64,000 nucleotides of DNA from Bdellovibrionales bacterium (GTDB taxonomy: Bacteria; Bdellovibrionota; Bdellovibrionia; Bdellovibrionales; UBA1609). The number at the start of each line of letters is the position of its first letter. Position 1 is the stretch's first letter. Of the stretch, positions 1-16,660 are shown in pieces. A program made the translations under genes and the position numbers. The notes beneath the pieces were generated by a model. The model searched no databases and was not told where the DNA came from. It was given only the letters and a program-made list of their open reading frames with translations. The stretch spans positions 348,633 through 412,632 of the forward strand of contig OZ242172.1 of NCBI GenBank assembly GCA_965205645.1. The letters are read 5' to 3'.

Positions 1-219
1 ACGAACAGGGGGATTAAGGTTTATCCGGATCCGAACCCTGAAACATTTTGCACAGATCATTGGCGATGTCGGTTTATAAAAATAAAAGAAAATAGTTTGT
101 TAGATCAAAATCATCTGATTGCTTTGTTGCAAGATCTTGTCTCTAGTAAAATAGAGATTATAAAAACAGAAAACTTGTATTCTTTTTCTGGAGAAAAAAA
201 CTACTCTCAAATCGGGTAG
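1..219 (+). CDS. 3' end of an unidentified CDS that runs off the window start
   Basis: Frame 1 is open from nt 1 to TAG at 217-219 (72 codons, ...DHWRCRFIKIKENSLLDQNHLIALLQDL...). No family recognised. Confidence 0.3.
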   Translation, partial: TNRGIKVYPDPNPETFCTDHWRCRFIKIKENSLLDQNHLIALLQDLVSSKIEIIKTENLYSFSGEKNYSQIG

Positions 220-736
220 TGGATATTAACATCACAGCCATTTTAAAAAATGTGTATCTGTGAATAAGGTATGGCAAAAGATGAATACATTTATAATTTG
301 GAGTAAGATAAAGAAATTTTAAGTTGTTGATAATAGTTCAATTTACTTTCGGGCATCAGACATGGAAAATTTTATTAAAGAAAAACTAAAGAAGGAAGTT
401 GCTTTTTCTGCAGTTTCCATCTCTATCCTGGAACCTCCGCTTATGCCACTATTTTTAACTGTTTTCAGCTAGTGAGTTCTATTTCAAGGTTAATATAAAG
501 ATCTCCGGAAATTTAAAACAAGGTTGTTAGAATAAACAGAATCATGCCAGATAATAAAAAGTTGACTAAACATGTATCTTTTATTCAAATTTTTCTCTGA
601 AATACCGATAAAATATGAAAAATCACTCTTATCTTTTTGATGACATTATTACTAGTATATTTATTTGCCAATAATTTTTCTATTTATGAGGCTAAAGATA
701 AATATCTAAAAATGTAATAACAAGGATAAAATATAG

Positions 737-1288
737 ATGGGAACTTCAATATCTCAAGTATCTCCTGGTTCCGGCCCTGGATCTAATGAATGGTCTAACT
801 TCCAAAATGATATTTCATCTGGAAATATTACTCCAGATAAAGCTTTGTCAAGTGTAAAAGAAGCTTTTAAAGGGGAGTACGGTAATGAATATGTTAACAT
901 CATCGTAGATAAAGGTGTCTCTTTAATTGAAAACTTTGTTAAAAAATTCACTTCACCACATAATATTCCAGCTGAGGCTGCTTTTATTGTTCAAGGACGC
1001 AAGCTTCTAGCTCAACATCAATCAAATTCATTTTTAGCCGAACTAGCTCTTATGAAGGCAGCTGCTTGTTCTTCAATTGATGACATTGGAAAGAGAAAAG
1101 TAGCATTTTATACAAATTATTTAACGGGAGTTGTAGATTATTCCGTCTCAAGAGATTTAACAAAGATATTGGGGAATATCGGAATAAGTAATATCTCTAA
1201 ATTAGAGAGTTATATCAATAATGTAAAAAGAAAACTATCAGAGACAATAACTAAACAAAAAAGCCTTAAGGAAATTCTGAATGACTAG
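737..1288 (+). CDS. Hypothetical 183-aa soluble protein, first gene of the QueC-like operon (possible partner or substrate, QatB-like role)
   Basis: ORF with N-terminus MGTSISQVSPGSGPGS (Gly2, G/S/P-rich). The rest looks helical. Its stop overlaps the next gene's ATG by 8 nt (ATGACTAG). Confidence 0.6.
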   Translation: MGTSISQVSPGSGPGSNEWSNFQNDISSGNITPDKALSSVKEAFKGEYGNEYVNIIVDKGVSLIENFVKKFTSPHNIPAEAAFIVQGRKLLAQHQSNSFLAELALMKAAACSSIDDIGKRKVAFYTNYLTGVVDYSVSRDLTKILGNIGISNISKLESYINNVKRKLSETITKQKSLKEILND

Positions 1289-3068
1289 CTTTAAAATATT
1301 AGTAAATAGACAATTGACTTATCCTAAGATTGATAGTGACAATAATGAGATAGAAATTCCTTTAAGTGTTCAGTCACCTATATATAAAGATAATTTAAAA
1401 CCAATTTATCGTGGAAACTTAGAAAAGGTAACACCTGAACTAAGAGATTTTATAGAAGTTGCATCAGTTATCAATTATGCCGATCGTTATTGTATTAGAA
1501 AAGAGAGAGAAAAGTGGTGCAGAAATATTGAAATCAATATTTCTCTAAGATGCCCTGAAAAATTTAAATTAATTAAATCAGATTTAGAATTATGTCTTAC
1601 TATACTTAGTGGAGATAATTTTTTATTTAATGTAAATAAGATAGATAGTAACCTTTCTTATCCTTTGCGCTCTCGAAAAAATAAAAGAAAAAAAGAAATA
1701 CAAAAGCTTTTAGATCAACTTACTCATATTGTTCTAATCTCAGGAGGACAAGACAGTTCTATAGCTGCTTATGATTATCTTCAAAAAGGTAAGGTTCCTT
1801 TTTTTGTACGAATTGACACACATGATAAAGCCAATCCTCAAAAACTTCTGAAACAAGCAAATAAAGAAGGAGTTAATTACTTTTATTTGAATCAAAAGAT
1901 TACAAAGCTTGATGCGACTATATTTAAAGGAAATTCTTTCCCTAAAGAAACAAGCCAAAGATTGAGATCTTTTTACTTTTTATCAGTGGCAACAACAATT
2001 GCTGCTACCACAAATATTAAAGAGGTCAATATTAATGAAAATGGAATAATGGCTATACATTTACCTTTGGATATATCTAGATCATCTAGTTTTTCAACTC
2101 GTACAGCTTATCCACCATATTTGTATCAGTTTTCTCAAATAGTTCAAAAATGGCTTGGAATAGATGAGTTTGAAATAAGAAATAAATGGATTTTAAAAAC
2201 GAAAAAAGAGGTTATTTCCTCTGGTTTAGAAAATAAGCTTGAAAAAGTTATATGTAATTCAACTTCATGTGCTCATGCCGCTATAGTGCAAAATATTGCA
2301 AAAATTCATAAAAAGAAAATTAATTATATAAAATCAGATGGTAGTGATTTACATTGTGGTTACTGTTTTCCTTGCATATTAAGGCGAATCTCAATGTCTA
2401 ACTCTGGGTTAGGAGATAAAGATGTATTTTACGTGATGAATCCTTTTGGGGAAATGATTGTCGATGCTGAAACTTCAAAATTTAATTTTTTACAAGAGTC
2501 TAAATCAGCCATTTTGTCTTTAATCAGATTTAGTAAATTATTCCGAGAAAAAAATACAACTGAATTAACGTCAGAGTATCCGCAAATTTATGAATGTGCT
2601 TTTGCTCTTGATGACATTAATCTTGTGAATGATATTGTTGATATGTATAAAAGATTTTCAAATGAGGTATATCAATTTATATCACAAAAATCCCCAAGGT
2701 TACTTTTCCTATATGATGATGAAAAATCTAAGCTTGTTGATAAAATTATAAATTCAGTAGCAACCATAAATTCGATGGAAGAAATTTTAAATTCCTTTAA
2801 AATCGGTAACTGGAATGAACACTTTGAGAAAGAGTTGAAGACTGCCTATAGCTTAGTTCGTTATAGAATTCTTATAGCATTAGGCAATGATTTGATAAAT
2901 CAAAATCAGATTTTATTTTTTTTTAAGCAAGCTCTGGAATCAATTCTACCTCACAAAGCTGAAGATCGTAAAAGATTACAATTGAATATACAATATGGAA
3001 GAGAAGTAAAGAAAAAAATACTAAGAGATTGTAGCTGTCCTCCCTTTACAAGAAGAAGAATAGGGTAA
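1281..3068 (+). CDS. QueC-like PP-loop ATPase (7-cyano-7-deazaguanine synthase family) with ~150-aa N-terminal and ~215-aa C-terminal extensions; QatC/Cap9-like
   Basis: PP-loop ISGGQDSS at aa 153-160. Cys cluster C330 ... HC359GYC362FPC365ILRR resembles the QueC Zn site (C-x2-C-x2-C). At 595 aa it is far longer than housekeeping QueC. Confidence 0.75.
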   Translation: MTSFKILVNRQLTYPKIDSDNNEIEIPLSVQSPIYKDNLKPIYRGNLEKVTPELRDFIEVASVINYADRYCIRKEREKWCRNIEINISLRCPEKFKLIKSDLELCLTILSGDNFLFNVNKIDSNLSYPLRSRKNKRKKEIQKLLDQLTHIVLISGGQDSSIAAYDYLQKGKVPFFVRIDTHDKANPQKLLKQANKEGVNYFYLNQKITKLDATIFKGNSFPKETSQRLRSFYFLSVATTIAATTNIKEVNINENGIMAIHLPLDISRSSSFSTRTAYPPYLYQFSQIVQKWLGIDEFEIRNKWILKTKKEVISSGLENKLEKVICNSTSCAHAAIVQNIAKIHKKKINYIKSDGSDLHCGYCFPCILRRISMSNSGLGDKDVFYVMNPFGEMIVDAETSKFNFLQESKSAILSLIRFSKLFREKNTTELTSEYPQIYECAFALDDINLVNDIVDMYKRFSNEVYQFISQKSPRLLFLYDDEKSKLVDKIINSVATINSMEEILNSFKIGNWNEHFEKELKTAYSLVRYRILIALGNDLINQNQILFFFKQALESILPHKAEDRKRLQLNIQYGREVKKKILRDCSCPPFTRRRIG

Positions 3069-3071
3069 TTT

Positions 3072-3620
3072 ATGAATTCTGGAAAAAATGAAATCGTTAC
3101 TATATATTCTCATGTTGTATCACAAGTAATATTTATTTCTACATCGGGAATTGCTGCTGGAGTTACATTATTACAGGCAGGTGTCATTCAAACATCTTAT
3201 TTGTCACTGATACTTTCTTTTATACTCTTTGCCATTTCTCTTATATTAGGAGTTTTTGGCTTAACAACACTCCTTGGACAAGCAGATACGGGAAACCCTG
3301 ATATTCATAAGTGGATAGTTCGTTGGCCAAATTTAATTTCCATGTGTTCATTTGTATTTGGAGTGATCTTTTTTACATATTCATTATCTTCACATTTTTT
3401 TTTAAAGCCAATTGATAAAAACATAAAACCAATTAAAAAAATCCTTGTTGAAACTGTCAAAAAATCTAATCTTAATTGCTTAGTTGGTAATTTAAATAAA
3501 GAACAAAGGCTACTTCTAACTTACTTTATTGAGAAGTCTTTCCAAAATATAGTTTGCCAAGCAGTACAAGTTGATTTACTAAAAAAAATAGAGAAAAATA
3601 TTGATATCAATAATAAATAA
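3072..3620 (+). CDS. Small integral membrane protein (about 4 predicted TM helices plus a charged C-terminal tail); candidate effector of the QueC-like operon
   Basis: Hydrophobic stretches VVSQVIFISTSGIAAGVTLL, LSLILSFILFAISLILGVFGLTTLL and ISMCSFVFGVIFFTYSL. Starts 3 nt after the upstream stop. Confidence 0.6.
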   Translation: MNSGKNEIVTIYSHVVSQVIFISTSGIAAGVTLLQAGVIQTSYLSLILSFILFAISLILGVFGLTTLLGQADTGNPDIHKWIVRWPNLISMCSFVFGVIFFTYSLSSHFFLKPIDKNIKPIKKILVETVKKSNLNCLVGNLNKEQRLLLTYFIEKSFQNIVCQAVQVDLLKKIEKNIDINNK

Positions 3621-3808
3621 GGAATTCATGGTCATTTCAAGAGGAATTTTTACCACCTGATTCCAAACCTGCCATTTCTACTCATTTGCAATGGCTATGA
3701 TTTATGAGACTAAGAGTGAAATGTTGAATACTAAATTAAAAGAACAAAAACTAGCAGGATAGAGAGAATGTTAAATTATAATTTTAAGACAAAAGATAAC
3801 AGTAAAAA

Positions 3809-6373
3809 TTAGATAGTAACATTTTCTACATAACTCATGAAACTGCGGTCATTTTTAGAACTAGGAAATACTAAACTAACTGCATAAATTGGAAGTGCTT
3901 CTAAACCCTTGATCATTGTTTCTGGTAGTGCTTTGGAGGGATCAAGAGGGTATATCAGTAAAAGTCCTCTTTCTTTTGGTCGCTTCTCTCTTCTGAGTTT
4001 TGTATCAGTTGTGCTAATTTTAGTCATTTTCTTTCTATACTCGCTATAAGAGTCTGATTCTGGCTTTAGAATGTCCGCCATATCAACGGCTTCGTGCAAA
4101 GTTGGTACTAATGACCTAAGTGTTATATATTCTTTACCTTCTTGTGGTTTATCAAGTGAACTACGAACAGCTAAATAAACCTTTTCTCCAGAAGGAAGTG
4201 TATATTCTACTTTTCCTGACTTACTTGACATTAAACATACTGACCAATTTGTGAGTTCATCGTGTTTATTCAAATCAGCTATATAACGAATTCCAAGATT
4301 CTTGTTGAATCTAATGTGTTCTGTATTTAATTGGAAATTCTCAAGGAATTGAATTATATATTCTGAAGATACATTATGATACAGTATAGCATTTTTAAAT
4401 TCGTTAAAAATATATCTATTAGTTCTCTCTGCTTGATTTTTCAGTTTACTAAACAAATTTTCCACGGTTTTTCTATTTTTGTTTAGAATAGAAATATCAT
4501 CGATTTTCATAGTTCGAAATTGAATTTTAGAACCTGAATAGGTGAAACTAGATCTAACTGCTGTCCTCATTTTATTATTAGATGTTATCTTAAGGTTAGG
4601 AAAAGATCTTATTCTGACAGCAACATCAATAGGTCTTTCTTGATTTACTGCCATTGCATTAATTTCGTCACGAATCTCTTGTTCAACAGTTGCTAAGTTA
4701 TGGAAATTAATTATCATACTTTCTGAAACAAAAATTCTTGTTAAATCAACATATCCCTTTCGGTAGCCAAACCAACGACCCATTTGTAGAAGAGTGTCGT
4801 ATTGTTTTGTAGTTCTATCGAAATAACTTATTGTTAATCCTTCTATTGTTAGCCCTCTTGAGAGAGTATTTCCACCTATTACAATTCCCCAAAGAGGCTC
4901 TTTTCTATCAAAAGAAAGTCTGTCTGAAGATGCAGAGTTCTCTAATATTATTTCTAACTTATCAATAAAATTACGAACTTCTTTAAAAAACTGATTTGAT
5001 TTAAAAAAAATATCTTCTTCAAGAATAAATTTAGTTGTTACCTTATGGTCATCTTCAAGTATTCTATTGAATTCTTCAGGTAGTTCCTCATAATCATCAA
5101 AGGCTAATTGAAGTTCTTGAATATATTGTTGAATCCATTCATGGTATCTTTCATGTTCACTTATTAGATGGGATATATGCACAAGCATCATAATATGATC
5201 ATTTCGTTGACCTCTAAATAACCTTAGTACACCAGAAATTATGAAAGTCCTAATTGCTAATTTTAAGGATTCTGGAATAACTTTTTTACCATCAACAATA
5301 TTATCTTCATTTTCAGGGAGAGTTCTAATTACGGGTATAGGTCTCTTCTCATCATCTCCATTCACACCCATTCGACCAAAAAGTTCTTCTGGTCCAAAAT
5401 AGGTAGGAGGTTTTTCCAAGCAAATTAGAAAATCTCGTGGATAGATATCCCCATCTAAACTTCCATCTACAAGGATATTAGCGAAGGGAGTTGCTGTATA
5501 TCCAACATAACTTACCTTATCAAAATGATTAATTAGATCTCGTATCTTAGAATTGATTGCCGTGGGGTCTTGTTCAGGTTTATTTGTGTTAATACTTGCT
5601 TGGTCAGATTCATCATCAACTATCAAAGTAGCACAATTTTTAATATTTTCTTTATTTGCTTTAGAAATCCAATCATTGAATGCTCTTAATACATGTGTAT
5701 TCTTTTTAAGTACAACAAGTGCAAATCCGTCTTTGGATCCAAGAGCTCTGTTGGCTGTAACAGCTTGTTTTTTGTCAAAATCTCCTTTTTCATCAACTCT
5801 AGTTAAAGTCATACAAGCTTCTGGTTTAGGCCTTTCTAACTCCTCAACTAGTCTGGTTTGGGTTTGAAGCCTAAGATTATTATGCATTCCACTTAATACA
5901 ATGATTAATTTATAACCTTCATCAATGGTTTTTGCTATTACAGCGGAAAAGTTGGCTGTTTTACCACTCTGAATGTAGCCCAAAACTAACCCTTTACTTG
6001 TTAAAGGACGTTTTGACTTAGGTGGAACAAGATGTTCAACAATACTGTCAGAGGCTAAGTCTAAACTTTTAATCATCTCCTTAGTCCAAGGGTTCTTTTT
6101 ATTAAATAGATGTTCCTTAAGAAGATTCCAATGACTATCTTCTTTATCTCTAGGACCTTGATACCAACCTAAGTAATCTTGATTCTCTGAAAGAGCAACT
6201 GGAGCAACTTCTCCAGCTAGTATAGGATCTGATTCTTTAATTTTCTTGATTGCAGTTTCGACTTCTTCTTTCCCAAAGATATTTCTTAAGGCATACTCTG
6301 CATCTTCGAGAGTTTGCCCTAATGCTAATTTTTCTCTAATTGATGTTTCAATAAACTGGAATCGTTGATCCAT
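3809..6373 (-). CDS. Z1 domain-containing P-loop NTPase (restriction/defence-associated)
   Basis: GLVLGYIQSGKTANFSAVIAKTIDEGYKLIIVLSGMHNNLRLQTQTRL (Z1-type Walker A block), TLIVDDESDQAS (Walker B/DExD-like), GGNTLSRGLTIEGLTISYF (characteristic Z1 C-terminal motif). Confidence 0.8.
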   Translation of the reverse strand: MDQRFQFIETSIREKLALGQTLEDAEYALRNIFGKEEVETAIKKIKESDPILAGEVAPVALSENQDYLGWYQGPRDKEDSHWNLLKEHLFNKKNPWTKEMIKSLDLASDSIVEHLVPPKSKRPLTSKGLVLGYIQSGKTANFSAVIAKTIDEGYKLIIVLSGMHNNLRLQTQTRLVEELERPKPEACMTLTRVDEKGDFDKKQAVTANRALGSKDGFALVVLKKNTHVLRAFNDWISKANKENIKNCATLIVDDESDQASINTNKPEQDPTAINSKIRDLINHFDKVSYVGYTATPFANILVDGSLDGDIYPRDFLICLEKPPTYFGPEELFGRMGVNGDDEKRPIPVIRTLPENEDNIVDGKKVIPESLKLAIRTFIISGVLRLFRGQRNDHIMMLVHISHLISEHERYHEWIQQYIQELQLAFDDYEELPEEFNRILEDDHKVTTKFILEEDIFFKSNQFFKEVRNFIDKLEIILENSASSDRLSFDRKEPLWGIVIGGNTLSRGLTIEGLTISYFDRTTKQYDTLLQMGRWFGYRKGYVDLTRIFVSESMIINFHNLATVEQEIRDEINAMAVNQERPIDVAVRIRSFPNLKITSNNKMRTAVRSSFTYSGSKIQFRTMKIDDISILNKNRKTVENLFSKLKNQAERTNRYIFNEFKNAILYHNVSSEYIIQFLENFQLNTEHIRFNKNLGIRYIADLNKHDELTNWSVCLMSSKSGKVEYTLPSGEKVYLAVRSSLDKPQEGKEYITLRSLVPTLHEAVDMADILKPESDSYSEYRKKMTKISTTDTKLRREKRPKERGLLLIYPLDPSKALPETMIKGLEALPIYAVSLVFPSSKNDRSFMSYVENVTI

Positions 6374-6563
6374 GAATTTATTATAGCCTTCGTAGAGGTT
6401 AGTCTCAGGTTTTTAACTTATAATTAGCTAAGGCTTAACACTACAGACTTAAGTATAGATGTAGCAAGAAGTTAATTTATTTAAAAAATTACATCTTTGT
6501 AATTCTGGACTCTTATTTGTCTCAAAATGAACCGAAATTATTTAAACAATTGTGAGGTCAAGG

Positions 6564-6788
6564 ATGAATAGAACAGTTAAATGGCAACTTGGAAAAGTAT
6601 CTTGGTTTAATGATGGATCAGGAGAAGGTGTTATTCGCACAGAAACAGGAAGAGATTTTTATGTTCATTGTTCAGCTATTCAATCAAACAAAAAAAAACG
6701 ATTTTTAAAACCAAAACAAAAAGTAAAAATTCAGGTTTTAGATGATGAGTTTGCAAGACATATCACTAAAGTTTCTTTGAATGTTTAA
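6564..6788 (+). CDS. Cold-shock domain (CSD/OB-fold) protein with degenerate RNP motifs
   Basis: GKVSWFNDGSGEGVIRTETGRDFYVHCSAIQ aligns to CspA KWFN..KGFGFI...D.FVHFSAIQ. ATG at 6564 is preceded by GAGG. The track ORF starts at GTG 6552. Confidence 0.7.
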   Translation: MNRTVKWQLGKVSWFNDGSGEGVIRTETGRDFYVHCSAIQSNKKKRFLKPKQKVKIQVLDDEFARHITKVSLNV

Positions 6789-6818
6789 AATTATTTCTAA
6801 TTTTGGATATACCATCAT

Positions 6819-9800
6819 ATGGCGACACAAAAAAATATAAAAGAAAATTATCTATATAAATATAAGAATCCTCTTGAACTTGTCGTAGATAATACAGATT
6901 CAATAAAGAATCCAGCCTATTGGGAAAGCACTCTGTTTTCTGAAGTTTATCTGAATAATGATTTAAAAAGGGATTTTAATGAAAGATGGGATAAAGATTT
7001 TGATGATATTGTATTTGATGAAAATGGGAATACAAAAAAATCAGGATTTGCACACTTTTATAATGAGTTTAGAAACATTGCTCCAGATTTAAAAGCGCTT
7101 ACTAATAGAAAGCTTAGTGAAACAGACACAATTACAAAAATTATTGCGCCTATATTAAATGTTCTAGGTTGGTTTGACAAATGTGAAAGTAATGCTCAAG
7201 AACCCTATGCCGCAGAAACCTCTTTTACTATAAAAGGAAGGGGTATAGAAAAAGATAAGACATATCGTACTGACATGCTACTTGTTGATGACCATCGAGA
7301 GGCAACTTATATTTCTGAACAAGAAACTTCCGATCAAAGAAGAGGAGAAGCTAGACGATATTGCATTGTACCTCTTGAAGCAAAATACTGGAACCGAATT
7401 ACTGATCAAAAAGGTAATAAAAAATTTGATTCAAAAAGAGAGGATAAAAAGAAAGATGATACTGGAAGAAGCTTTTCTTTTAATGAACAAGTTTTAAATT
7501 ATATGAATATCCTCCATAAAAACTGGGGAATCGTTACAGATGGAAATACATGGAGACTAGTTCATTTGGAAATATCAGAGGAGGATTCAGAAAGATGTTT
7601 TGAATTTAAATTAGAATCACTTCTATCAAAAGAACAACATATTGGAGAGAGTAAAAACGATCACGGTGAATTTTTAGAACTAGCGAAATATTTCTATCTT
7701 TTCTTTGGGAAACCATCTTATGTTAAAGATGATATTGGAAAAGTTTTTATCGATGAAGTTTTAAAAGAAAGTCGCAAATACATTGATTCCATTGAAGAGG
7801 ATCTCACGGATCGATTTATTTCTGCGATGAATATTACTTGTAATGGCTTACTTAGAGCTGCTAAAGAAAATGGAACAATTACAAAACCCACAGAAGATGA
7901 TCTAAAATTGATCAGGACTGTGGCTGAAAGTCACTTATTTAATATTTTATTTATTAAATCCTGTGAATCTAGAAGCATTCTACCTACCAGAAATCCAGAT
8001 TATTACAACATTTCATTAACAAGAATTATTGATCGTATTAAAGATTTTGATCCAGAAAGATATAGAAAATCTAGAAGAGATAGAGACTATATTAATCAAA
8101 AGCTTTTAAAATCATTAAATGGAAGTAAATTTAAACCTGAAGGTACAAATCTGTATAAAAACCTCATTAAACTCACTGAAGTTATTCATGAAGGGACAGA
8201 GAAATATGATTATGGATTTGAAATCAAAGGATTTAAAGAAAGTGTTTTTTCAAAAATTGAGTGGAATTTTTCTAAGAAACATTGTCTTACAGATGCAGAA
8301 ATGGTTCAGGTTCTTTTTCAACTGGGATATTCAAAATCTAATAAAACCCTCCAAAGAAATTACCGACAAATTCCCTATAACTACTTTACACCTAGACAAC
8401 TCGGGTCAATCTATGAATCCTTCTTAGAATACCAACTTGATGTTGCTCAAGAGCCTATGGTTTACCTCAAAAAGGGAAAGCACAAACAGTGGATAAAACT
8501 CACAGCAGCTATTGAAAGAAAACTTAAAGGATGTGATCTTATTGTTAAAAACGGACAACTCTTTTTTACTCCTAATAATTCTGAACGAAAAGCCACAGGG
8601 AGTTACTATACTCCAGATTATATTGTTCAGTATATCGTAAGAGAAACAATCAGTCCTTTGTGTGAAGGAAAATCAAGTAAAGAGATTCTTGAGTTAAAAG
8701 TTTGCGATCCAGCTATGGGAAGTGGTCACTTTCTAACCGGAGCACTAAATTTTTTAACAAGAGAATATTTAAAAGCTTTAGAATTAGAAAAACCATCTGA
8801 AGATATACCAACAAAAGAAGAAGCTAAAAGAATTGTATTAGATAAATGTATCTATGGTATGGATATCAATCCAAGAGCTGTAAAATTAGCAAAAATGAGC
8901 TTATGGCTTGAGAGCGCTCATCCTGGAAAAAAATTAGAAAGGTTAGATGATCAACTATTTGAACAAGATACTTTAAAACTCGAAAAACCAATTGTTGAAG
9001 ATATTTCTGCTTATATCGGTAATCCGCCATGGGTGTTAAAAAGAGATAGTGATCTGACAGAAGAGTATAAAAAATACATACAACTTAACTATAAAAGCGC
9101 AGAAGGGTTTAAGAAAAATATTTTTTCTTTGTTTGTAGAAAGAGTTTGTAAGTGGTCAGGTGACTTTTCAGTTAATTTAGTTTTACCAGATAGATTATTA
9201 GTCACTCCAAGTTATATAGAAGCTAGAAAAATAGCATTAAAGTCATTTACAAATACTAAAGTGACAATTCTTCCAGAGGAAAGCTTTGAAGATGTGACTG
9301 CATCATATATAACTTTTCATCTCTATAACTCTAAAAATGATATTGGTAGTATCAAAATATATAGTTTCAAAGAAGACTCTATGAAAGTGCACTATAACTT
9401 AAACGAATTAGGTACTAATTTTAAAATAAATATCCATAGAAATCCATCTTTAGCTCCATTTATTGAAAAATTAAATAAGATAAGTAAACCTCTGTCTGAT
9501 AGTTATTTTTGTCATGTAGGAATGATGGTGAAAGATAATAAAAATGAATTCGCTAGGATTTCTGATAAAAAAAGATCCACAAGAATTGTTAAAGGGCATT
9601 GTTTAGGAAAATTAGAGGTTGATTTTACATATTTTTTTAATCCAAATTCAGTTACTATCTTTGGTGGAACTAAAAGAAAAAAGAAACATGCTGTTAGTCC
9701 AAAACTTTTAGTAAGAAAAACTGGAAATTATATTTTGTCATCTATAGACAAAAATTCTAAACAGCCAATATATGCAGAGCAATCAGTCTATTTAGTTATT

Positions 9801-10115
9801 CCTAAAAATCAAACGGCTACAGAAAATATCGATATAATTAATATATATTTGAATACTTTTATTCCTACACTATATTTTAGGAATGAGTTGATAACCAATC
9901 CAAACTCTTATCCTTATATTCAACAATATGATCTTGAACAGATTCCTATACCTAGAGTTTTATTAAATGATAAAATACTTATTTCAAAGATAAGGGATAA
10001 AATCAAAAAATGTAATAATAAATCACTTGCTTTAGATAGAGTTTGTACTCTTCTGTGTAGCAGCTTGGATCTACCATTAGAAAAGAGCGAAATGCTATTT
10101 AAAATAGCATCTTGA
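6819..10115 (+). CDS. Type IIG restriction-modification fusion (N-terminal PD-(D/E)xK-like nuclease, gamma-class N6-adenine DNA methyltransferase, C-terminal specificity region)
   Basis: GSYYTPDYIVQYIV (motif X), CDPAMGSGHFL (motif I, SAM binding), IGNPPW (motif IV). N-terminal TDMLLVDD ... VPLEAKYW is a candidate D...ExK nuclease site. 1098 aa in a single polypeptide. Confidence 0.8.
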   Translation: MATQKNIKENYLYKYKNPLELVVDNTDSIKNPAYWESTLFSEVYLNNDLKRDFNERWDKDFDDIVFDENGNTKKSGFAHFYNEFRNIAPDLKALTNRKLSETDTITKIIAPILNVLGWFDKCESNAQEPYAAETSFTIKGRGIEKDKTYRTDMLLVDDHREATYISEQETSDQRRGEARRYCIVPLEAKYWNRITDQKGNKKFDSKREDKKKDDTGRSFSFNEQVLNYMNILHKNWGIVTDGNTWRLVHLEISEEDSERCFEFKLESLLSKEQHIGESKNDHGEFLELAKYFYLFFGKPSYVKDDIGKVFIDEVLKESRKYIDSIEEDLTDRFISAMNITCNGLLRAAKENGTITKPTEDDLKLIRTVAESHLFNILFIKSCESRSILPTRNPDYYNISLTRIIDRIKDFDPERYRKSRRDRDYINQKLLKSLNGSKFKPEGTNLYKNLIKLTEVIHEGTEKYDYGFEIKGFKESVFSKIEWNFSKKHCLTDAEMVQVLFQLGYSKSNKTLQRNYRQIPYNYFTPRQLGSIYESFLEYQLDVAQEPMVYLKKGKHKQWIKLTAAIERKLKGCDLIVKNGQLFFTPNNSERKATGSYYTPDYIVQYIVRETISPLCEGKSSKEILELKVCDPAMGSGHFLTGALNFLTREYLKALELEKPSEDIPTKEEAKRIVLDKCIYGMDINPRAVKLAKMSLWLESAHPGKKLERLDDQLFEQDTLKLEKPIVEDISAYIGNPPWVLKRDSDLTEEYKKYIQLNYKSAEGFKKNIFSLFVERVCKWSGDFSVNLVLPDRLLVTPSYIEARKIALKSFTNTKVTILPEESFEDVTASYITFHLYNSKNDIGSIKIYSFKEDSMKVHYNLNELGTNFKINIHRNPSLAPFIEKLNKISKPLSDSYFCHVGMMVKDNKNEFARISDKKRSTRIVKGHCLGKLEVDFTYFFNPNSVTIFGGTKRKKKHAVSPKLLVRKTGNYILSSIDKNSKQPIYAEQSVYLVIPKNQTATENIDIINIYLNTFIPTLYFRNELITNPNSYPYIQQYDLEQIPIPRVLLNDKILISKIRDKIKKCNNKSLALDRVCTLLCSSLDLPLEKSEMLFKIAS

Positions 10116-10155
10116 ATCTTTATAGATTTTATGAATCTTGCTCAGATTTCAATAG

Positions 10156-10560
10156 TTTTTTTATCTAATTAGTATTAGTTTAGAAATAAGCTTTTTTGTT
10201 TCCAATAGAGTAATTAGTAAACTTGATTGCATTCTGTATACAACTATACTTAGCCCTAAAAGGAATATTGGTGATTTAATTTATATTTATACTATATTTC
10301 TGAATTCTAGTTATGCCATAAAATGGTTTTCTAAAAATACGATTATTGAAGGTTACACATGGTAGAGCTCACAACTTGGCTTACCGTTACCATCTCTTGA
10401 GGAAGTCAAGAGTCATCCTCTTTATAAAAAGATTATAAATTTAGGTAAACATCTTTATAGTGAGAAAAGATCTACACTAACAATAGATGAAATAAAATTA
10501 GTAGATGAATTTTATAATTCGTTCACGTTAAATGGAGTCAAACTAAATTTAGCTCCTTAA
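10156..10560 (+). pseudogene. Decayed C-terminal (specificity-domain-like) remnant of a second Type IIG/MTase-type gene
   Basis: One frame reads ...IYIYTIFLNSSYAIKWFSKNTIIEGYTW*SSQLGLPLPSLEEVKSHPLYKKIINLGKHLY...LAP*. It has an in-frame TAG at 10363-10365 and no start codon. The pattern parallels the C-terminus of the upstream enzyme (IYLNTFIPTLYF...LEQIPIPRV...). Confidence 0.45.
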
Positions 10561-10787
10561 TGTAAAAACAATGTATTTTTTAGATACCATCTTGGCGGTG
10601 TCTAACGTATACAACATATTTAGTTCCCGTACTCTCTACCATTTATGAATTTTTCAATATTTGATCACCAGTTAAAATAGAGAGCTAATTTTTATTAAAA
10701 TTTCCTTTGCTATTTTAAAATTATAATTTTTAGTAAAAACTGCCGATTACTCATCTATAATCTTAAAAAAATTAGTGAGATAAAAAA

Positions 10788-12794
10788 ATGAAAAATCATC
10801 GGTATTTGACAAAATCACGCTTTAAACTTGGGTTGGAGTGTCCAACAAAACTCTATTATACAAAAAAGCCAGAATATTCAAATCAAACAAAGGATGACCC
10901 CTTTCTTTCTGCTCTTGCAGATGGAGGTTATCAGGTTGGCGAACTTGCAAAGTTATACTTTCCTAATGGACATAACATCACAACGCTTGATTCTGAAGAA
11001 GCAGAAGCACAAACGCTGAACCTGTTACAGCAAGATGAAGTGATTATTTATGAACCTGCTATTAAATTCAAAAATCTTTTTATAAGGGTTGATGTCTTAG
11101 TTAAAAAAGGTAATTGCTTTCAACTCATTGAGGTAAAATCCAAGTCATTTGATACAAATAAAGAAAAACCATTTTTAAGTAAAACAGGAACGATAAGATC
11201 AAGTTGGAAACCCTACTTATACGATATCGCTTTTCAAAAATATGTCCTGACAAGTGCTTACCCTGAAGCTTCGGTTACTTCCTATTTAATGCTGGTAGAT
11301 AAAAATATAAAATGCCCGATTGAAGGTCTAAATCAGAAATTTAAAATTATTAAAGATAAAAATAATAGAAAAGGAATTAAAGTCTCTAATACTCTACCTA
11401 AGGAATGTTTAGAGGAGAAAATATTGATACAAGTTCCTGTGGATGAAGAAATTCAGCTTATTTATGATGGCAAAGATTCAAAAGAACAAACAGAGAGAAG
11501 CTTTTTTGATAATATTATATTCTTAGCTGAGAAATATGAAAAAGACGAAAAAATAGTATCAGACATTGGATCAAAGTGTGCAAAATGTGAATTTACCTGC
11601 TCAAACGAAGAGGAAAAAAGTGGCTTCAAAAGTGGTTTTAAAGAGTGTTGGTCATCAAAACTAAATTGGTCTGATAAAGACTTTAAAGATGAAAATGTTT
11701 TAAGCATTTGGAGTTTTAGAAAAAAAGATGAACTAATAAAACAAGGAAAAATAAAGTTAGCTAATCTAGTTAAAGAGGATATAGCTCCTAAAGAAGATAA
11801 AAAACCAGGTATATCCGCCAGCCAAAGACAATGGTTGCAAGTGGAAATGGCTCAAAAAAAAGAGACGAAACCTTTCTTGGATGTTCCAGGGTTGAAAAAC
11901 GAAATGGACAAGTGGGTATTCCCGTTACATTTTATTGATTTTGAAACAACAAAAGTTGCTTTTCCTTTTAATAAAGGTCGTAAGCCCTATGAAGGAGTCG
12001 CTTTTCAATTTTCTCATCATGTAGTCTATGAAGACGGAACAGTAGAACACGCTGGACAATATCTAAATACAAAACAAGGTTTTTTTCCTAACTATGAATT
12101 TGCAAGACAACTAAAGAGTGAGCTTGAAAAAGATAAAGGCACTATATTTAGATATGCTAGCCATGAGAATACATACTTGAATAAAATCTATTGTCAGTTG
12201 TTAGAAGACCAAAGCAACATTCCAGACAGAGAGGCTCTTTGTGAGTTTATAAAATCCATTACAAAATCTGATAAATCTAGTCCTGAAAAATGGGAAGGTG
12301 ATAGATGTATGGTGGATATGTTTGAGCTGGTAAAAAGATTTTTTTATGATCCTTATACCAAAGGCTCTAATTCCATTAAGCAAGTTCTTCCTGCTGTTTT
12401 AAATTCCTCAGAGTTTTTACAGAAAAAATACAGTAAATCTATTTATGGCTCTTCAGGAGGTATAAAAAGTTTAAATTTTAAGGACTGGAAATGGATTGAT
12501 TGGAAAGAGGGAAAGATTATTAACCCTTATAAAATGCTACCTAAGATGTTTCAGGATGTATCTGATAAGGATATGGAACTCTTATCAGAAGAGAATGAAC
12601 TATCCGATGGTGGAGCGGCTTTAACTGCTTATGGAAGAATGCAATTTAGTGAAATAACCGAGTATGAAAAAAGAGAGCTTGAATCCGCTTTACTTAAATA
12701 TTGTGAATTAGATACACTTGCAATGGTTATGATTTACGAAGCTTGGCGGGATATGTTAGATACTAAATTAAAAGAAAACAAAATAGCTGGGTAA
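10788..12794 (+). CDS. DUF2779-type protein: N-terminal Cas4/RecB-like PD-(D/E)xK nuclease fused to a C-terminal RNase H-fold (DnaQ-like) exonuclease-like domain
   Basis: N-terminus YLTKSRFKLGLECPTKLYY (typical DUF2779 start), FIRVDVLV...QLIEVKSKS (D...ExK), CAKCEFTC Cys cluster, HFIDFET (DxE) and CELDTLAMVMIYEA (distal Asp). Confidence 0.7.
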   Translation: MKNHRYLTKSRFKLGLECPTKLYYTKKPEYSNQTKDDPFLSALADGGYQVGELAKLYFPNGHNITTLDSEEAEAQTLNLLQQDEVIIYEPAIKFKNLFIRVDVLVKKGNCFQLIEVKSKSFDTNKEKPFLSKTGTIRSSWKPYLYDIAFQKYVLTSAYPEASVTSYLMLVDKNIKCPIEGLNQKFKIIKDKNNRKGIKVSNTLPKECLEEKILIQVPVDEEIQLIYDGKDSKEQTERSFFDNIIFLAEKYEKDEKIVSDIGSKCAKCEFTCSNEEEKSGFKSGFKECWSSKLNWSDKDFKDENVLSIWSFRKKDELIKQGKIKLANLVKEDIAPKEDKKPGISASQRQWLQVEMAQKKETKPFLDVPGLKNEMDKWVFPLHFIDFETTKVAFPFNKGRKPYEGVAFQFSHHVVYEDGTVEHAGQYLNTKQGFFPNYEFARQLKSELEKDKGTIFRYASHENTYLNKIYCQLLEDQSNIPDREALCEFIKSITKSDKSSPEKWEGDRCMVDMFELVKRFFYDPYTKGSNSIKQVLPAVLNSSEFLQKKYSKSIYGSSGGIKSLNFKDWKWIDWKEGKIINPYKMLPKMFQDVSDKDMELLSEENELSDGGAALTAYGRMQFSEITEYEKRELESALLKYCELDTLAMVMIYEAWRDMLDTKLKENKIAG

Positions 12795-12801
12795 AAGTTG
12801 A

Positions 12802-13326
12802 TTAACGGTATGTTTTGGGTTTTTTACATTTAATAGAATTTTTCTTTATAACACAAGTATTCTGCGTCTTGGTTCCCATATGTGTGGAATCCTTATAAAA
12901 AAAACTGTTTTGATCCCATCGCACATATGTAGTGATAGCTCCATAAGTGGGAATTTTAATCCATTTTAAAACTTTGTTATCTTTTACAAGAGTAAAATAA
13001 AGGTTTCCCCACCAGTTTTTTTCATATTCAATATAAATTATTTTCTGTGAAGTATTGAGAGGATTCGGACAAACTGTAATATCCGGGTTTTTATACTGTT
13101 TCAGATAATGCGCTTTCTTTGATTTGGAAAGGGATTTTGATTTAACAAGATTATCATAATGGGCATTCAGTTGTTCATTAAATTTTTCTTTAAATGTCTC
13201 TAATAAAGGGGCTGGTGTTTTCATTTCTTTTGTAGTGCAAAAAGATTGCTGAGATAAAGCCTTATGGGTTGAGAATAAAACAGGTATACAAAAGAGAATG
13301 AATTTAGAATAATTCAATAGAGGCAT
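12802..13326 (-). CDS. Hypothetical secreted protein
   Basis: The ORF from internal Met gives the signal-like N-terminus MPLLNYSKFILFCIPVLFSTHKALS. This start sits directly downstream of the ATPase stop (13328). No family recognised. Confidence 0.45.
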   Translation of the reverse strand: MPLLNYSKFILFCIPVLFSTHKALSQQSFCTTKEMKTPAPLLETFKEKFNEQLNAHYDNLVKSKSLSKSKKAHYLKQYKNPDITVCPNPLNTSQKIIYIEYEKNWWGNLYFTLVKDNKVLKWIKIPTYGAITTYVRWDQNSFFYKDSTHMGTKTQNTCVIKKNSIKCKKPKTYR

Positions 13327-13327
13327 T

Positions 13328-14467: not shown

Positions 14468-14733
14468 ATTTTCTCTTTGTTAAAATCCACAACATAGTTG
14501 TTGATTTTCATTATTTTCAACAACTTAATTATGGATTTTCAAATCTATTTTGTCAAGATTTTACCATTTCTTTTGAGTCCAGATAGGAAGGAAAAGCTTT
14601 TTTTCACTATCTTTTTAAAGATAATCAAACATTTAGACCGCCATTTTATAGACCACTTTTATCTGTTTTTTAACTTCCATCAATTCTGGATTTTCAAATA
14701 GAATCGGTATAAAGTATAAATAAGGAGGAAACT

Positions 14734-14943
14734 ATGAAAAGTAGAAACTGGCAATGTCCTAAATGTAATCACCATGCCTGTGATGTTGACAAAATTTCAA
14801 CCACAGGTGGAATGCTTACAAAATGGCTCAACTTACAAAGTAAAAAATTTTCCACGGTTACTTGCAAAAAATGTAAATATACAGAGTTATATAAAGCCAC
14901 GACCAATCAATTAGAAAATATATTTGATTTTCTCTCTGGATAA
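14734..14943 (+). CDS. Small zinc-ribbon protein
   Basis: CPKCNHHAC ... CKKCKYTE (two CxxC pairs). Strong SD AAGGAGG 5 nt upstream of the ATG. Confidence 0.6.
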   Translation: MKSRNWQCPKCNHHACDVDKISTTGGMLTKWLNLQSKKFSTVTCKKCKYTELYKATTNQLENIFDFLSG

Positions 14944-15099
14944 ATACAAACAAGCTCTTCTAAAAAAGAGAGTAATTTATGACAAAATTAAAGGCATATA
15001 GTGTGGATGGTTTTTTACATTGCCAGTGTAATTAAAGAATCATATAAACTATTTGACTTGCATATATTCCGTGGATTATCATGATAATACACGAAATAG

Positions 15100-16656: not shown

Positions 16657-16660
16657 AGTG

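What the first reader, a model, noticed from the sequence alone, without database searches (positions are those of the whole stretch)
737..3620. Three-gene operon built around an expanded QueC-like PP-loop enzyme: candidate undescribed defence system
Seen: three co-directional ORFs are translationally coupled. There is an 8-nt ATGACTAG overlap at 1281-1288 and a 3-nt gap at 3069-3071. The middle protein (595 aa) has an SGGQDS PP-loop (nt 1740-1757). Its Cys cluster (C330, then C359-x2-C362-x2-C365 within HCGYCFPCILRR) is laid out like the QueC zinc site. That core is flanked by a ~150-aa N-terminal extension and a ~215-aa C-terminal extension that housekeeping QueC lacks. No queD, queE, queF, folE or tgt gene is nearby. 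Established: QueC-like enzymes occur in the Qat system (QatC, with QatA ATPase, QatB and QatD TatD-like nuclease) and in type IV CBASS (Cap9, with TGT-like Cap10 and a CD-NTase). As I recall, recent work on CBASS IV reports that the QueC-like enzyme attaches a 7-deazaguanine derivative to a partner protein. Here none of QatA, QatD, Cap10 or a CD-NTase is present. Instead the partners are a 183-aa soluble protein and a 4-TM protein. The soluble protein starts MGTSISQVSPGSGPGS, so Gly2 and a flexible G/S/P-rich N-terminus make it a plausible modification acceptor. The 4-TM protein is a plausible membrane effector. Inference: a minimal substrate / QueC-like modifier / membrane-effector module. 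It sits in a defence island next to Z1, Type IIG and DUF2779 genes.
Basis: partly seen in the sequence, partly recalled or inferred. Interest (0 to 1): 0.88.

Follow-up and report, generated by a model that had tools for sequence, protein, structure and literature searches.

The report
Qat-like defence operon with membrane partner
This three-gene operon is a previously undescribed variant of the known Qat anti-phage system: it keeps the core pair (a QueC-like enzyme and the small protein whose N-terminus that enzyme is thought to modify) but has a small membrane protein where the usual ATPase and nuclease would be.

Summary
Three coupled ORFs (737-1288, 1281-3068, 3072-3620) exist as described, with the PP-loop and Cys cluster in place.

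The interpretation needs correcting. The 595-aa protein is a divergent QatC: NCBIfam QatC E 3e-57, and Foldseek E 3e-14 to QatC of the solved QatB-QatC complex. It carries all QatC-specific motifs, including the Thr-x-Thr that replaces QueC's Tyr/Asp. Its "N-terminal extension" is ordinary QatC; only about 128 C-terminal residues are extra.

The 183-aa protein begins MGTSISQVSP…W, the published, functionally essential QatB N-terminal signature. Intermediate-length relatives link it to canonical QatB (hhalign 93.8%).

So this is the QatBC core, which published work shows is sufficient for defence, without QatA or QatD. It is joined to a 3-TM (not 4-TM) protein.

The triad recurs in 12 of 12 complete loci, with unrelated mobile or defence flanks. 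The QatC C-terminal extension occurs only in this class.

Other QatB-like/QatC pairs carry different third genes, so the family looks modular. The published Qat surveys and structure papers I read do not describe this architecture.

Most likely mechanism: QatC-long modifies Gly2 of the QatB-like protein, and the membrane protein acts as effector. This is inferred, not shown.

Verdict: new variant of a known kind, of moderate interest.

The parts
737..1288 (+). qatB-like gene (183 aa). The protein has a disordered N-terminal tail beginning MGTSISQVSPGSGPGSNEW, followed by a 9-helix globular domain.
   Evidence: ORF. AlphaFold2 model: pLDDT 89.9, residues 1-10 disordered, all-helical. Family of 287 representatives at 50% identity; 138 of the 163 sequences held start MGTS. 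Invariant residues G2 T3 S4 S9 W19 R139 D140. Linked to canonical QatB through intermediate-length proteins.
737..793 (+). Codons 1-19: the acceptor tail with the MGTS motif, Pro10 and Trp19. Gly2 would be exposed after Met removal.
   Evidence: Eight canonical QatB sequences (alignment A6) have N-terminal consensus MGTSxSSxGP..LIPxW; 14 canonical QatB open MGTS once two ORF calls that start upstream are trimmed. hhalign aligns the first 28 residues. The motif and Gly2 are essential in Qat systems (PMC13279940, PMC13639016).
1281..3068 (+). qatC-long gene (595 aa): a QatC-type PP-loop ATP pyrophosphatase with an extra C-terminal domain.
   Evidence: NCBIfam QatC E 3e-57, PADLOC QatC E 6.8e-51. 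PDB QatC 9vlk_A E 1.8e-23. Foldseek 9y01_B E 3.3e-14, TM-score 0.77 on the target.
1281..1288 (+). 8-nt overlap ATGACTAG between the stop codon of qatB-like and the start codon of qatC-long, suggesting translational coupling.
   Evidence: Overlaps of 1-8 nt at this junction in all homologous loci.
1740..1757 (+). PP-loop SGGQDS (residues 154-159), the ATP pyrophosphate-binding motif.
   Evidence: Invariant S154 G155 G156 D158 S159. Equivalent to Pseudomonas QatC S156/D160/S161, which are essential for defence.
2094..2105 (+). STRT (residues 272-275): the QatC-specific Thr-x-Thr that replaces the Tyr/Asp with which QueC and Cap9 recognise CDG.
   Evidence: T273 and T275 are invariant. They align with STRT of the solved QatC. 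Pseudomonas QatC T278/T280 are invariant and essential.
2268..2387 (+). Zn-site cysteines C330, C359, C362 and C365, followed by R368 and R369.
   Evidence: Invariant columns. Matches the published QatC Zn-site pattern, C(x)19CGxCxxRR. The C330-C359 spacing is 28 residues here, so there is an insertion.
2682..3065 (+). Class-specific C-terminal helical extension (about residues 468-595), ending in a near-invariant Cys-Pro-Pro-Phe motif (C586).
   Evidence: Lies beyond the end of the QatC profile. Helical in the model. Conserved across the long family. No Pfam or HHalign relative. Found only where the third gene is the TM protein.
3072..3620 (+). Gene for a small membrane protein (182 aa): three hydrophobic segments (about 15-33, 46-64 and 88-106), a conserved GQA..PDI loop, and a Lys-rich C-terminal tail of about 70 residues.
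   Evidence: A local HMM finds it downstream of qatC-long in every complete locus. No significant Pfam, PADLOC, NCBIfam or PHROG family.

Best explanation
The operon is a three-gene variant of the Qat anti-phage system, built on the QatB-QatC core.

Shown by homology: the 595-aa protein is a QatC-type PP-loop enzyme with the full QatC-specific active-site signature. The 183-aa protein is a short member of the QatB lineage and carries the conserved MGTS acceptor N-terminus.

Inferred mechanism:
1. Methionine aminopeptidase removes Met1, exposing Gly2.
2. The QatB-like protein binds QatC-long, and its short flexible tail enters the active site.
3. QatC-long uses ATP to adenylate a carboxylate substrate. 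This would be a 7-deazaguanine derivative such as CDG, as for Cap9 and as reported for E. coli QatB. The Thr-x-Thr pocket leaves the exact substrate open.
4. QatC-long transfers that substrate to the Gly2 alpha-amine.

In this class the QatA NTPase and QatD nuclease are replaced by a 3-TM protein. I propose that it is the output of the system, a membrane-perturbing (abortive-infection type) effector. It would be recruited or gated through the class-specific C-terminal domain of QatC-long.

The cassette is mobile cargo of defence islands.
For: QatC identity:
- E 3e-57 to NCBIfam QatC, Foldseek E 3e-14 to QatC of the QatB-QatC crystal complex, but only E 7e-3 to B. subtilis QueC.
- QatC-specific residues conserved (against the motifs listed): D56, D68..R73..W79xR81, SGGxDS, R227xR229xxxF233, E253-N-G255, T273/T275, T307-K308, Cys4 and RR.

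QatB-like identity:
- MGTS..P..W tail, invariant across the family and shared with 14 canonical QatB from annotated or HMM-confirmed qatABCD operons.
- The gene lies immediately upstream of qatC and overlaps it, as in canonical operons.
- All-helical globular domain behind a disordered tail.
- Intermediate 217-254-aa MGTS proteins encoded next to actinobacterial QatC match the short family at 99.9% (E 3e-31) and canonical QatB at 93.8% (E 1.7e-7), over the QatC-contacting region.

Literature:
- QatBC alone defends against lambda-vir.
- QatB G2D abolishes defence, and tail deletions abolish or severely reduce it.
- The QatB N-terminus sits in the QatC active site.

Triad conservation:
- 12 of 12 complete loci, spanning Bdellovibrionota, Candidatus Berkiella and metagenomes.
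- The flanks differ in every locus and are rich in restriction-modification, CBASS, toxin-antitoxin, integrase and P4-type primase genes.

Link between the C-terminal extension and the TM protein:
- The extension is present in all TM-partnered loci.
- It is absent from QatC in qatABCD operons and from QatC paired with the ~205-aa soluble protein, 15 of 15 loci where the downstream gene is visible.

Island context in the window.
Against: - No experiment exists on this class. Defence, modification and membrane activity are all inferred.
- The QatC score (194 bits) is below NCBI's equivalog cut-off (280 bits).
- The curated NCBIfam models and the PADLOC models do not recognise the 183-aa protein at E <= 1, although both libraries recognise the neighbouring gene as QatC.
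- Foldseek does not match its high-confidence model to the QatB chain, although the complex is in the library.
- The direct profile-profile match of the globular domains is weak: 52%, E 1.5e-4, and E 0.018 once the tail is removed.
- The tail is only about 15 residues, against 30-90 in canonical QatB.
- The chemistry of QatC itself is unsettled. One group could not reconstitute activity and suggests a substrate other than CDG.
- The TM protein has no detectable relative of known function, so 'effector' rests on analogy and gene position only.
- No hit in IMG/VR viral contigs.
Confidence: 0.65

Rival explanations
1. Same QatBC chemistry, but the membrane protein is not the killing effector. It anchors or localises the QatBC complex at the inner membrane, or senses phage entry or envelope stress. 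The modified QatB-like/QatC complex itself restricts the phage, as canonical QatBC does without QatA or QatD.
For: - QatBC alone suffices against lambda-vir, and QatA/QatD only widen the range.
- The TM protein is small, has no enzymatic domain and diverges fast: 23-48% identity to the window's copy across the loci compared.
- Its TM2-TM3 loop is conserved and would face the periplasm if the Lys-rich C-tail is cytoplasmic, which would suit sensing.
Against: - Strict co-occurrence with a dedicated QatC domain, plus translational coupling, fits an obligate partner but does not separate anchor from effector.
- Small multi-TM proteins at the end of defence operons are usually effectors. That is general knowledge, not tested here.
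Confidence: 0.25
2. The 183-aa protein is not a QatB homologue. It is an unrelated helical protein that has convergently acquired, or been fused to, the MGTS acceptor tag. On this view the tag is a portable recognition element for QatC-type ligases, and the globular domain has its own function.
For: - The direct alignment with canonical QatB is significant only over the first 28 residues.
- Foldseek finds no similarity to QatB.
- The NCBIfam and PADLOC scans gave this protein no hit at E <= 1.
- CD-NTases of type IV CBASS carry an analogous MGGS tag on an unrelated fold.
Against: - The bridging family links the short proteins and canonical QatB over the globular, QatC-contacting region at 93.8% probability.
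- The weak direct alignment picks out the same region.
- Gene position and overlap are identical to qatB.
Confidence: 0.2
3. The cassette is mainly an addiction or toxin-antitoxin-like module of mobile elements. The membrane protein would be a toxin held in check by the QatB-like/QatC pair, with phage defence incidental at most.
For: - The loci sit among integrases, resolvases, P4-type primases and toxin-antitoxin pairs.
- Three tightly coupled genes end in a small membrane protein.
Against: - Homology to a proven defence core.
- A 595-aa ATP-dependent ligase is an unusually elaborate antitoxin.
Confidence: 0.08
4. The 595-aa protein is a housekeeping or phage-type 7-deazaguanine (preQ0/queuosine/archaeosine) biosynthetic enzyme.
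For: Weak Pfam QueC hit (E 7e-4) and a PHROG 'QueC-like' hit (E 1e-10).
Against: - The Pfam score is below the gathering threshold (19.6 against 22 bits).
- The canonical QueC catalytic residues are replaced by the QatC set.
- No que, folE or tgt genes appear among the genes called next to the 12 homologous loci, or among the window genes scanned to 18 kb.
- E. coli QatC does not complement a queC deletion.
Confidence: 0.02

Closest known systems
QatABCD anti-phage system, specifically its QatB-QatC core complex (Gao et al. 2020; structures 9Y01/9Y02, 9VLK, 9ZEE, 9WVJ; PMC13279940, PMC13376578, PMC13639016)
   Same: - QatC-type enzyme with the N-terminal beta/alpha domain, PP-loop, Thr-x-Thr pocket, Cys4 Zn site and RR.
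- A small helical partner encoded immediately upstream and overlapping qatC, with an MGTS..P..W disordered N-terminus.
- Defence-island and mobile-element context.
   Different: - No QatA (KAP NTPase) and no QatD (TatD nuclease).
- The QatB-like protein is about 80 residues shorter, mostly because of a ~15-residue tail, and existing QatB models do not recognise it.
- QatC carries an extra ~128-residue helical C-terminal domain ending in CPPF.
- A 3-TM protein is the third gene.
- Found mainly in Bdellovibrionota-like and intracellular gammaproteobacterial genomes, not the Pseudomonadota-dominated canonical set.
Type IV CBASS Cap9-CdnD (deazaguanylation; bioRxiv 10.1101/2025.04.06.647259)
   Same: A QueC-family PP-loop enzyme acts on the Gly2 alpha-amine of a partner protein that has an M-G-x-S flexible N-terminus. 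It serves as a conceptual model for the chemistry.
   Different: - Cap9 is a minimal enzyme of about 185 residues that retains the QueC Tyr/Asp CDG pocket.
- Its substrate is a CD-NTase.
- It needs Cap10 (TGT-like) and cyclic-nucleotide signalling.
- None of these is present here.
Canonical QueC (7-cyano-7-deazaguanine synthase, PF06508; PDB 3BL5)
   Same: Rossmann-like PP-loop core and a Cys4 zinc site. Foldseek E 7e-3 over 242 columns.
   Different: - Canonical catalytic motifs (YxQxHxxE, VPxRN, YPDC) are absent.
- About 370 additional residues.
- No queuosine-pathway neighbours.
- Pfam score below threshold.
Sister variants found here: a short MGTS protein, a 430-435-aa QatC and a ~205-aa soluble protein (metagenome loci L039-L059; actinobacterial loci L007 and L019-L026). 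I found no description of them in the literature searched.
   Same: - The short QatB-like family is shared (hhalign 99.9% with the window's family).
- Same gene order and overlapping junctions.
- QatA is absent; QatD is absent from the operon itself.
   Different: - The third gene encodes a soluble ~205-aa protein, not a TM protein.
- QatC lacks the C-terminal extension.
- Actinobacterial loci add an upstream gene of ~365 aa.
- A few loci have a QatD-like gene on the opposite strand downstream.

Membership tests
QatC (NCBIfam NF041925 / PADLOC QatC) | Scores at or above the curated equivalog cut-off of the QatC model | tested here: not met
   194.3 bits against a cut-off of 280. The match is nonetheless E 3e-57 and covers profile positions 11-398 of 398. 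PADLOC QatC E 6.8e-51. This indicates a divergent subfamily, not an equivalog.
QatC (NCBIfam NF041925 / PADLOC QatC) | SGGxDS PP-loop | tested here: met
   S154-G-G-Q-D-S159, invariant in 20 sequences.
QatC (NCBIfam NF041925 / PADLOC QatC) | Invariant Thr-x-Thr in place of the QueC/Cap9 Tyr/Asp nucleobase-recognition residues | tested here: met
   T273 and T275 are invariant. They align to STRT of the solved QatC. The feature is defined in PMC13279940.
QatC (NCBIfam NF041925 / PADLOC QatC) | Cys4 zinc site followed by RR, plus the QatC-specific motifs (D63, D(x)4R..WxR, RxRxxxF/Y, ExG, TK) | tested here: met
   C330/C359/C362/C365, R368-R369, D56, D68-x4-R73-x5-W79-x-R81, R227-x-R229-xxx-F233, E253-N-G255 and T307-K308 (against the motif list). 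Two spacings differ: x5 instead of x7 before WxR, and 28 instead of 19 residues between the first two Cys.
QatC (NCBIfam NF041925 / PADLOC QatC) | QatC fold, including the N-terminal beta/alpha domain and the C-terminal helices that QueC and Cap9 lack | tested here: met
   The AlphaFold2 model (pLDDT 85) matches 9y01_B and 9y02_B at E 3e-14, TM-score 0.77-0.78 on the target, over 482-491 columns.
QatB | Extreme N-terminus MGTS, with conserved Pro and Trp a few residues downstream, on a disordered tail | tested here: met
   MGTSISQVSPGSGPGSNEW. G2 T3 S4 S9 W19 are invariant. Residues 1-10 have pLDDT below 50. Canonical consensus is MGTSxSSxGP..LIPxW. The tail is shorter: about 15 residues against 30-90.
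QatB | Encoded immediately upstream of qatC, co-directional and overlapping | tested here: met
   8-nt overlap here, 1-8 nt in all relatives. Canonical operons overlap by 1-8 nt.
QatB | Globular alpha-helical domain homologous to QatB | tested here: inconclusive
   - No hit to the curated models or to PDB QatB by sequence profile.
- Foldseek: no match, although 9y01 is in the library.
- Direct hhalign: 52%, E 1.5e-4.
- Through intermediate-length MGTS proteins: 99.9% to the short family and 93.8% (E 1.7e-7) to canonical QatB over the QatC-interface region.
QatB | Forms a 1:1 complex with QatC, with its N-terminus in the active site, and Gly2 is required | not testable with these tools
   No multimer prediction or experiment was available.
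QatABCD system (four-gene operon) | QatA KAP-family NTPase present | tested here: not met
   The local QatA HMM finds it in every canonical locus but in none of the triad loci, nor in the first 16 kb of the window. Scans of neighbours.
QatABCD system (four-gene operon) | QatD TatD-family nuclease present | tested here: not met
   The local QatD HMM gave no hit in the window or in triad loci L001-L006 and L016-L018. Gene calls for L060-L063 show no TatD family next to the triad.
QatABCD system (four-gene operon) | Confers phage resistance | not testable with these tools
   Requires cloning and plaque assays.
Type IV CBASS | CD-NTase, Cap10 (TGT-like) and a Cap9-type enzyme retaining the Tyr/Asp CDG pocket | tested here: not met
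   No such domains in the proteins scanned. The pocket residues are Thr/Thr.
Canonical QueC (PF06508) | Passes the Pfam gathering score and sits with queuosine-pathway genes | tested here: not met
   19.6 bits against 22. The genes called next to the 12 homologous loci show no que, folE or tgt genes.

The most novel reading that the evidence does not exclude
MGTS-tagged small proteins paired with QatC-type ligases form a large, largely unrecognised modular superfamily of immune systems. The short tagged protein alone has 287 clusters at 50% identity. The N-terminal protein conjugation step would be a common switch wired to interchangeable outputs: a KAP NTPase plus TatD nuclease, a ~205-aa soluble protein, or, in this class, a 3-TM protein. 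That membrane protein would dock to a dedicated C-terminal domain of QatC and kill or arrest the cell by damaging the membrane once the QatB-like protein is modified.
Probability: 0.4. Interest if true: 0.75.

Novelty: new variant of a known kind. Interest (0 to 1): 0.6.

Why it matters
How QatBC restricts phage after (or by) modifying QatB is explicitly called an open question in the 2026 structure papers. One published gene-cluster survey, which analysed 631 QatD sequences, describes Qat as about 98% four-gene qatABCD.

This locus shows that the QatB/QatC pair is a portable core found in at least three other architectures. In one of them, this one, it is coupled to a small membrane protein and to a matching extra domain on the enzyme.

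A membrane output gives a simple read-out, such as depolarisation or lysis, for whether and when the conjugation switch fires. The ~15-residue acceptor tail may be easier to work with biochemically than the 30-90-residue tails of canonical QatB.

The result also shows that current annotation models (NCBIfam, PADLOC) recognise the QatC here but not its partner proteins, so they would miss this variant.

Tried and rejected
- Sequence searches of the 183-aa protein and of a 5-sequence profile against PDB chains found no QatB, only noise.
- NCBIfam scans of family members found nothing.
- Foldseek of the 183-aa model against the PDB and viral libraries gave no match with E <= 0.001.
- Direct hhalign of the short family against canonical QatB aligned only the tail with a shallow profile and gave a marginal globular match with a deep profile. 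The link became convincing only through intermediate-length proteins.
- Pfam, PADLOC, NCBIfam and PHROG scans of the TM protein, and a Pfam scan of the QatC C-terminal extension on its own, gave nothing significant.
- hhalign of the C-terminal extension against QatA, QatB, QatD and the ~205-aa partner proteins gave nothing convincing. This rejects the idea that the extension is a fused copy of another Qat component.
- An Rfam scan of nt 1-4000 for a preQ1 or other riboswitch upstream found no match.
- The promoter/terminator scan was uninformative in this AT-rich DNA: 18 sites found against 21 expected.
- The IMG/VR scan for qatC-long found no viral copy.
- Three related-loci runs failed because the alignments were too divergent.
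- The reading 'housekeeping QueC' was rejected on motifs, scores and context.

Full report
**1. Observation**

The stop of the first gene overlaps the start of the second in ATGACTAG (1281-1288). Three bases separate the second and third genes. SGGQDS is encoded at 1740-1757. The cysteines C330, C359, C362 and C365 are present and invariant in the family.

These are real genes. Each has homologues elsewhere, in the same order and with the same tight junctions.

**2. The 595-aa protein is a QatC, not just QueC-like**

- Pfam QueC is sub-threshold: E 7e-4, 19.6 bits against 22.
- The curated QatC models match over almost their full length: NCBIfam NF041925 E 3e-57, profile positions 11-398 of 398, against residues 53-467; PADLOC QatC E 6.8e-51.
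- The score of 194 bits is below NCBI's equivalog cut-off of 280, so this is a divergent subfamily.
- Solved QatC chains match by sequence: 9vlk_A E 1.8e-23, 9zee_B E 3e-18.
- An AlphaFold2 model (pLDDT 85.1) has as its top Foldseek hits the QatC chains of the Pseudomonas QatB-QatC complex: 9y01_B and 9y02_B, E 3e-14, target TM-score 0.77-0.78. B. subtilis QueC comes far behind at E 7e-3.

The QatC-specific signature published by Libby et al. and Gao et al. is conserved. It comprises D56, D68-x4-R73…W79-x-R81, SGGxDS, R227-x-R229-xxx-F233, E253-N-G255, T307-K308 and the Cys4 site followed by RR. It also includes the Thr-x-Thr (T273/T275) that replaces the Tyr/Asp with which QueC and Cap9 read 7-carboxy-7-deazaguanine.

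What is extra is a helical C-terminal domain of about 128 residues (about 468-595). It ends in a near-invariant Cys-Pro-Pro-Phe/Leu motif.

**3. The 183-aa protein belongs to the QatB lineage**

It starts MGTSISQVSPGSGPGSNEW. [quoted passage not shown] They also report that:

- the tail sits in the QatC active site;
- Met1 is removed;
- G2D abolishes defence, and tail deletions abolish or severely reduce it.

I fetched eight annotated qatABCD operons from plasmids. Their QatB proteins read MGTSxSSxGP…LIPxW.

An exhaustive HMMER search with the window family's profile found 287 representatives at 50% identity, 147 of them at E <= 1e-10. Almost all are 183-200 aa, and 138 of the 163 sequences held begin MGTS. 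G2, T3, S4, S9, W19, R139 and D140 are invariant across 61 diverse members. The AlphaFold2 model is confident (pLDDT 89.9), with a disordered first decapeptide followed by nine helices.

Homology of the globular part is harder to establish.

- The NCBIfam and PADLOC scans gave this protein no hit at E <= 1.
- A profile against PDB sequences did not find QatB.
- Foldseek did not match the QatB chain, although the complex is in the library. The published papers likewise found no structural relative for QatB itself.
- Direct profile-profile comparison aligns the tail.
- With a 136-sequence profile it aligns window residues 81-173 with canonical QatB residues 132-234, at only 52% probability and E 1.5e-4.

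The decisive link is a set of intermediate proteins of 217-254 aa that start MGTS. Six were read from loci next to QatC genes, mostly in Actinomycetota genomes, and five came from the exhaustive search. They match the short family at 99.9% (E 3e-31; 99.3% with the tail removed). They match canonical QatB at 93.8% (E 1.7e-7) over the same globular region. In the E. coli structure that region (residues 136-225) is the QatC interface.

I therefore treat the 183-aa protein as a short, divergent QatB. I leave about a one-in-five chance that only the tag is shared.

**4. The third gene and conservation of the triad**

The 182-aa protein has three hydrophobic segments by hydropathy, about 15-33, 46-64 and 88-106. 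It also has a conserved GQA…PDI loop between the second and third segments and a Lys-rich tail of about 70 residues. It has no significant match in Pfam, PADLOC, NCBIfam or PHROGs.

The long QatC family has about 20 clusters of 575-595 aa. They come from Bacteriovorax, Pseudobdellovibrio, Candidatus Berkiella aquae and metagenomes. In every locus with enough sequence the arrangement is the same: short MGTS protein, QatC-long, TM protein. Those loci are the window, L001-L006, L017 and L060-L063, 12 in all. The first junction overlaps by 1-8 nt, and the second ranges from a 4-nt overlap to a 13-nt gap.

Identities to the window proteins are 30-36% for the QatB-like protein, 34-43% for QatC-long and 23-48% for the TM protein across the ten loci compared. 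That indicates long co-inheritance.

Flanking genes differ in every locus. They include restriction-modification systems, a CBASS operon with BrxR, HigB and BrnT toxin-antitoxin pairs, integrases, a resolvase, and P4-type primase/AlpA elements. None is a queuosine gene. Local HMMs for QatA and QatD find those genes in all canonical operons but never beside the triad.

**5. A modular family**

At least four architectures around a QatB-like/QatC pair emerged.

- **(i) Canonical:** QatA, QatB (250-300 aa), QatC (420-457 aa), QatD.
- **(ii) The present class.**
- **(iii) Soluble partner:** a short MGTS protein (184-189 aa), QatC (430-435 aa), and a conserved soluble protein of ~209 aa. This was seen in all 15 metagenome loci where the downstream gene is visible (14 full-length), none with a TM protein.
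- **(iv) Actinobacterial:** loci with an upstream ~365-aa gene, a ~229-aa MGTS protein, QatC (433 aa) and a ~204-aa protein. That last protein aligns along its full length with the ~209-aa protein of class (iii) (63%, E 7e-5).

The C-terminal extension of QatC occurs only in class (ii). Classes (ii) and (iii) share the same short QatB family, so the extension tracks the TM partner and not the QatB form. This is the main argument that the extension and the membrane protein work together. The extension itself has no detectable relative.

**6. Literature position**

- QatBC is described as the minimal functional unit of qatABCD, sufficient against lambda-vir.
- Another group could not reconstitute activity. 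It points to the Thr-x-Thr pocket as a possible sign of a different substrate.
- One gene-cluster survey, which analysed 631 QatD sequences, reports that 98% of clusters are qatABCD. It lists seven forms, none with a membrane protein.
- A QueC-superfamily network analysis notes that only about 34% of QatC-cluster genes lie beside qatA or qatD. That leaves room for what is seen here.
- Full-text searches for QatBC/Qat-like terms, and for QueC-like plus transmembrane plus anti-phage, found no description of this architecture.

**7. Mechanism**

Shown by homology: an ATP-dependent QatC-type enzyme and its tagged partner.

Inferred steps:
1. Met1 is removed, exposing Gly2.
2. The tail enters the active site.
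3. A carboxylate substrate is adenylated (CDG by analogy; the exact substrate is open).
4. The substrate is transferred to the Gly2 amine.

More speculative: the modified complex acts through the 3-TM protein, which is recruited through the QatC C-terminal domain and causes membrane damage (abortive infection).

The main rival keeps the same chemistry but makes the membrane protein an anchor or sensor.

**8. Context in the window**

The operon lies at the edge of a low-GC segment, 0.30 against about 0.35 elsewhere. The segment carries:

- a cold-shock-domain gene;
- a type IIG restriction-modification enzyme;
- a DUF2779 gene;
- two PDC-S01 (AAA_14/DUF4143) genes.

It ends at tRNA-Lys and tRNA-Glu (16582-16733), just before purA.

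Directly after the triad there is a 26-codon relic of the 3' end of a DUF2779 gene, at 3685-3762. It duplicates the end of the intact DUF2779 gene 9 kb away. This is a scar of cassette exchange.

**9. Verdict**

The module is not a wholly undescribed system. It is a new three-gene variant of the Qat family, and the published Qat surveys and structure papers I read do not describe it. Current annotation models recognise its QatC but not its two partner proteins. Interest is moderate: 0.6.

Noticed in passing
window 3661-3762 (+), compared with 12715-12794: Directly downstream of the triad is a relic of the 3' end of a DUF2779-type gene. It reads ...FAMAMIYETKSEMLNTKLKEQKLAG*, matching the end of the intact DUF2779 gene 9 kb away (79-nt direct repeat, 78% identity). 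It looks like a scar of cassette insertion or exchange in the island.
   Followed up: partly
window 1-16733: The first ~16 kb has GC of about 0.30, against about 0.35 in the rest of the window. It ends at tRNA-Glu and tRNA-Lys (16582-16733, minus strand), next to purA. This looks like a tRNA-adjacent genomic island full of defence genes.
   Followed up: partly
[not shown]
   Followed up: no
window 13328-14467 (-) and 15100-16278 (+): Two divergently oriented paralogues with AAA_14 and DUF4143 domains. Both match the PADLOC candidate system PDC-S01 (E 1e-59 to 1e-61).
   Followed up: no
L039-L059 (metagenome contigs): A sister three-gene module: a short MGTS protein (184-189 aa), a QatC of 430-435 aa, and a conserved soluble protein of ~209 aa (N-terminus MxKFSITQLExARKNP) with no Pfam match. 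All junctions overlap. Seen in all 15 loci where the downstream gene is visible (14 full-length).
   Followed up: partly
L007, L019-L026 (mostly Actinomycetota genomes): A four-gene variant: a ~365-aa protein, a ~229-aa MGTS protein, a QatC of 433 aa and a ~204-aa protein (MTRxxFGxYRKGVREP). The last is distantly related to the ~209-aa protein above. L007's first gene is flagged FokI_cleav_dom in the precomputed table, but my Pfam scan did not reproduce that. L023 and L025 have a QatD-like gene on the opposite strand downstream.
   Followed up: partly
L006:8545-10333: In the closest relative of the window's operon (QatB-like protein 75% identical), qatC-long is split into two ORFs. This is either a frameshift or an indel error in a long-read assembly. 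The locus sits between an MmeI-type restriction-modification system and a SMODS/HORMA/AAA CBASS operon with BrxR.
   Followed up: no
L005:5567-5875, L061:4954-5298, L062:228-596: An XRE-family HTH gene lies just upstream of the triad, on the same strand, in 3 of 12 loci. It is not present in the window, where nt 1-736 hold no ORF of 60 aa or more. It may be an optional regulator.
   Followed up: no
protein P0150 (572 aa) and P0063 (274 aa): Library proteins in which a short MGTS protein runs on into QatC sequence. They are either natural fusions or frameshifted gene calls. Either way they confirm adjacency in further lineages.
   Followed up: no
window 3036-3047 (C586-P-P-F) and homologues: A near-invariant Cys-Pro-Pro-Phe/Leu motif lies a few residues from the C-terminus of every long QatC. 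Its role is unknown.
   Followed up: partly
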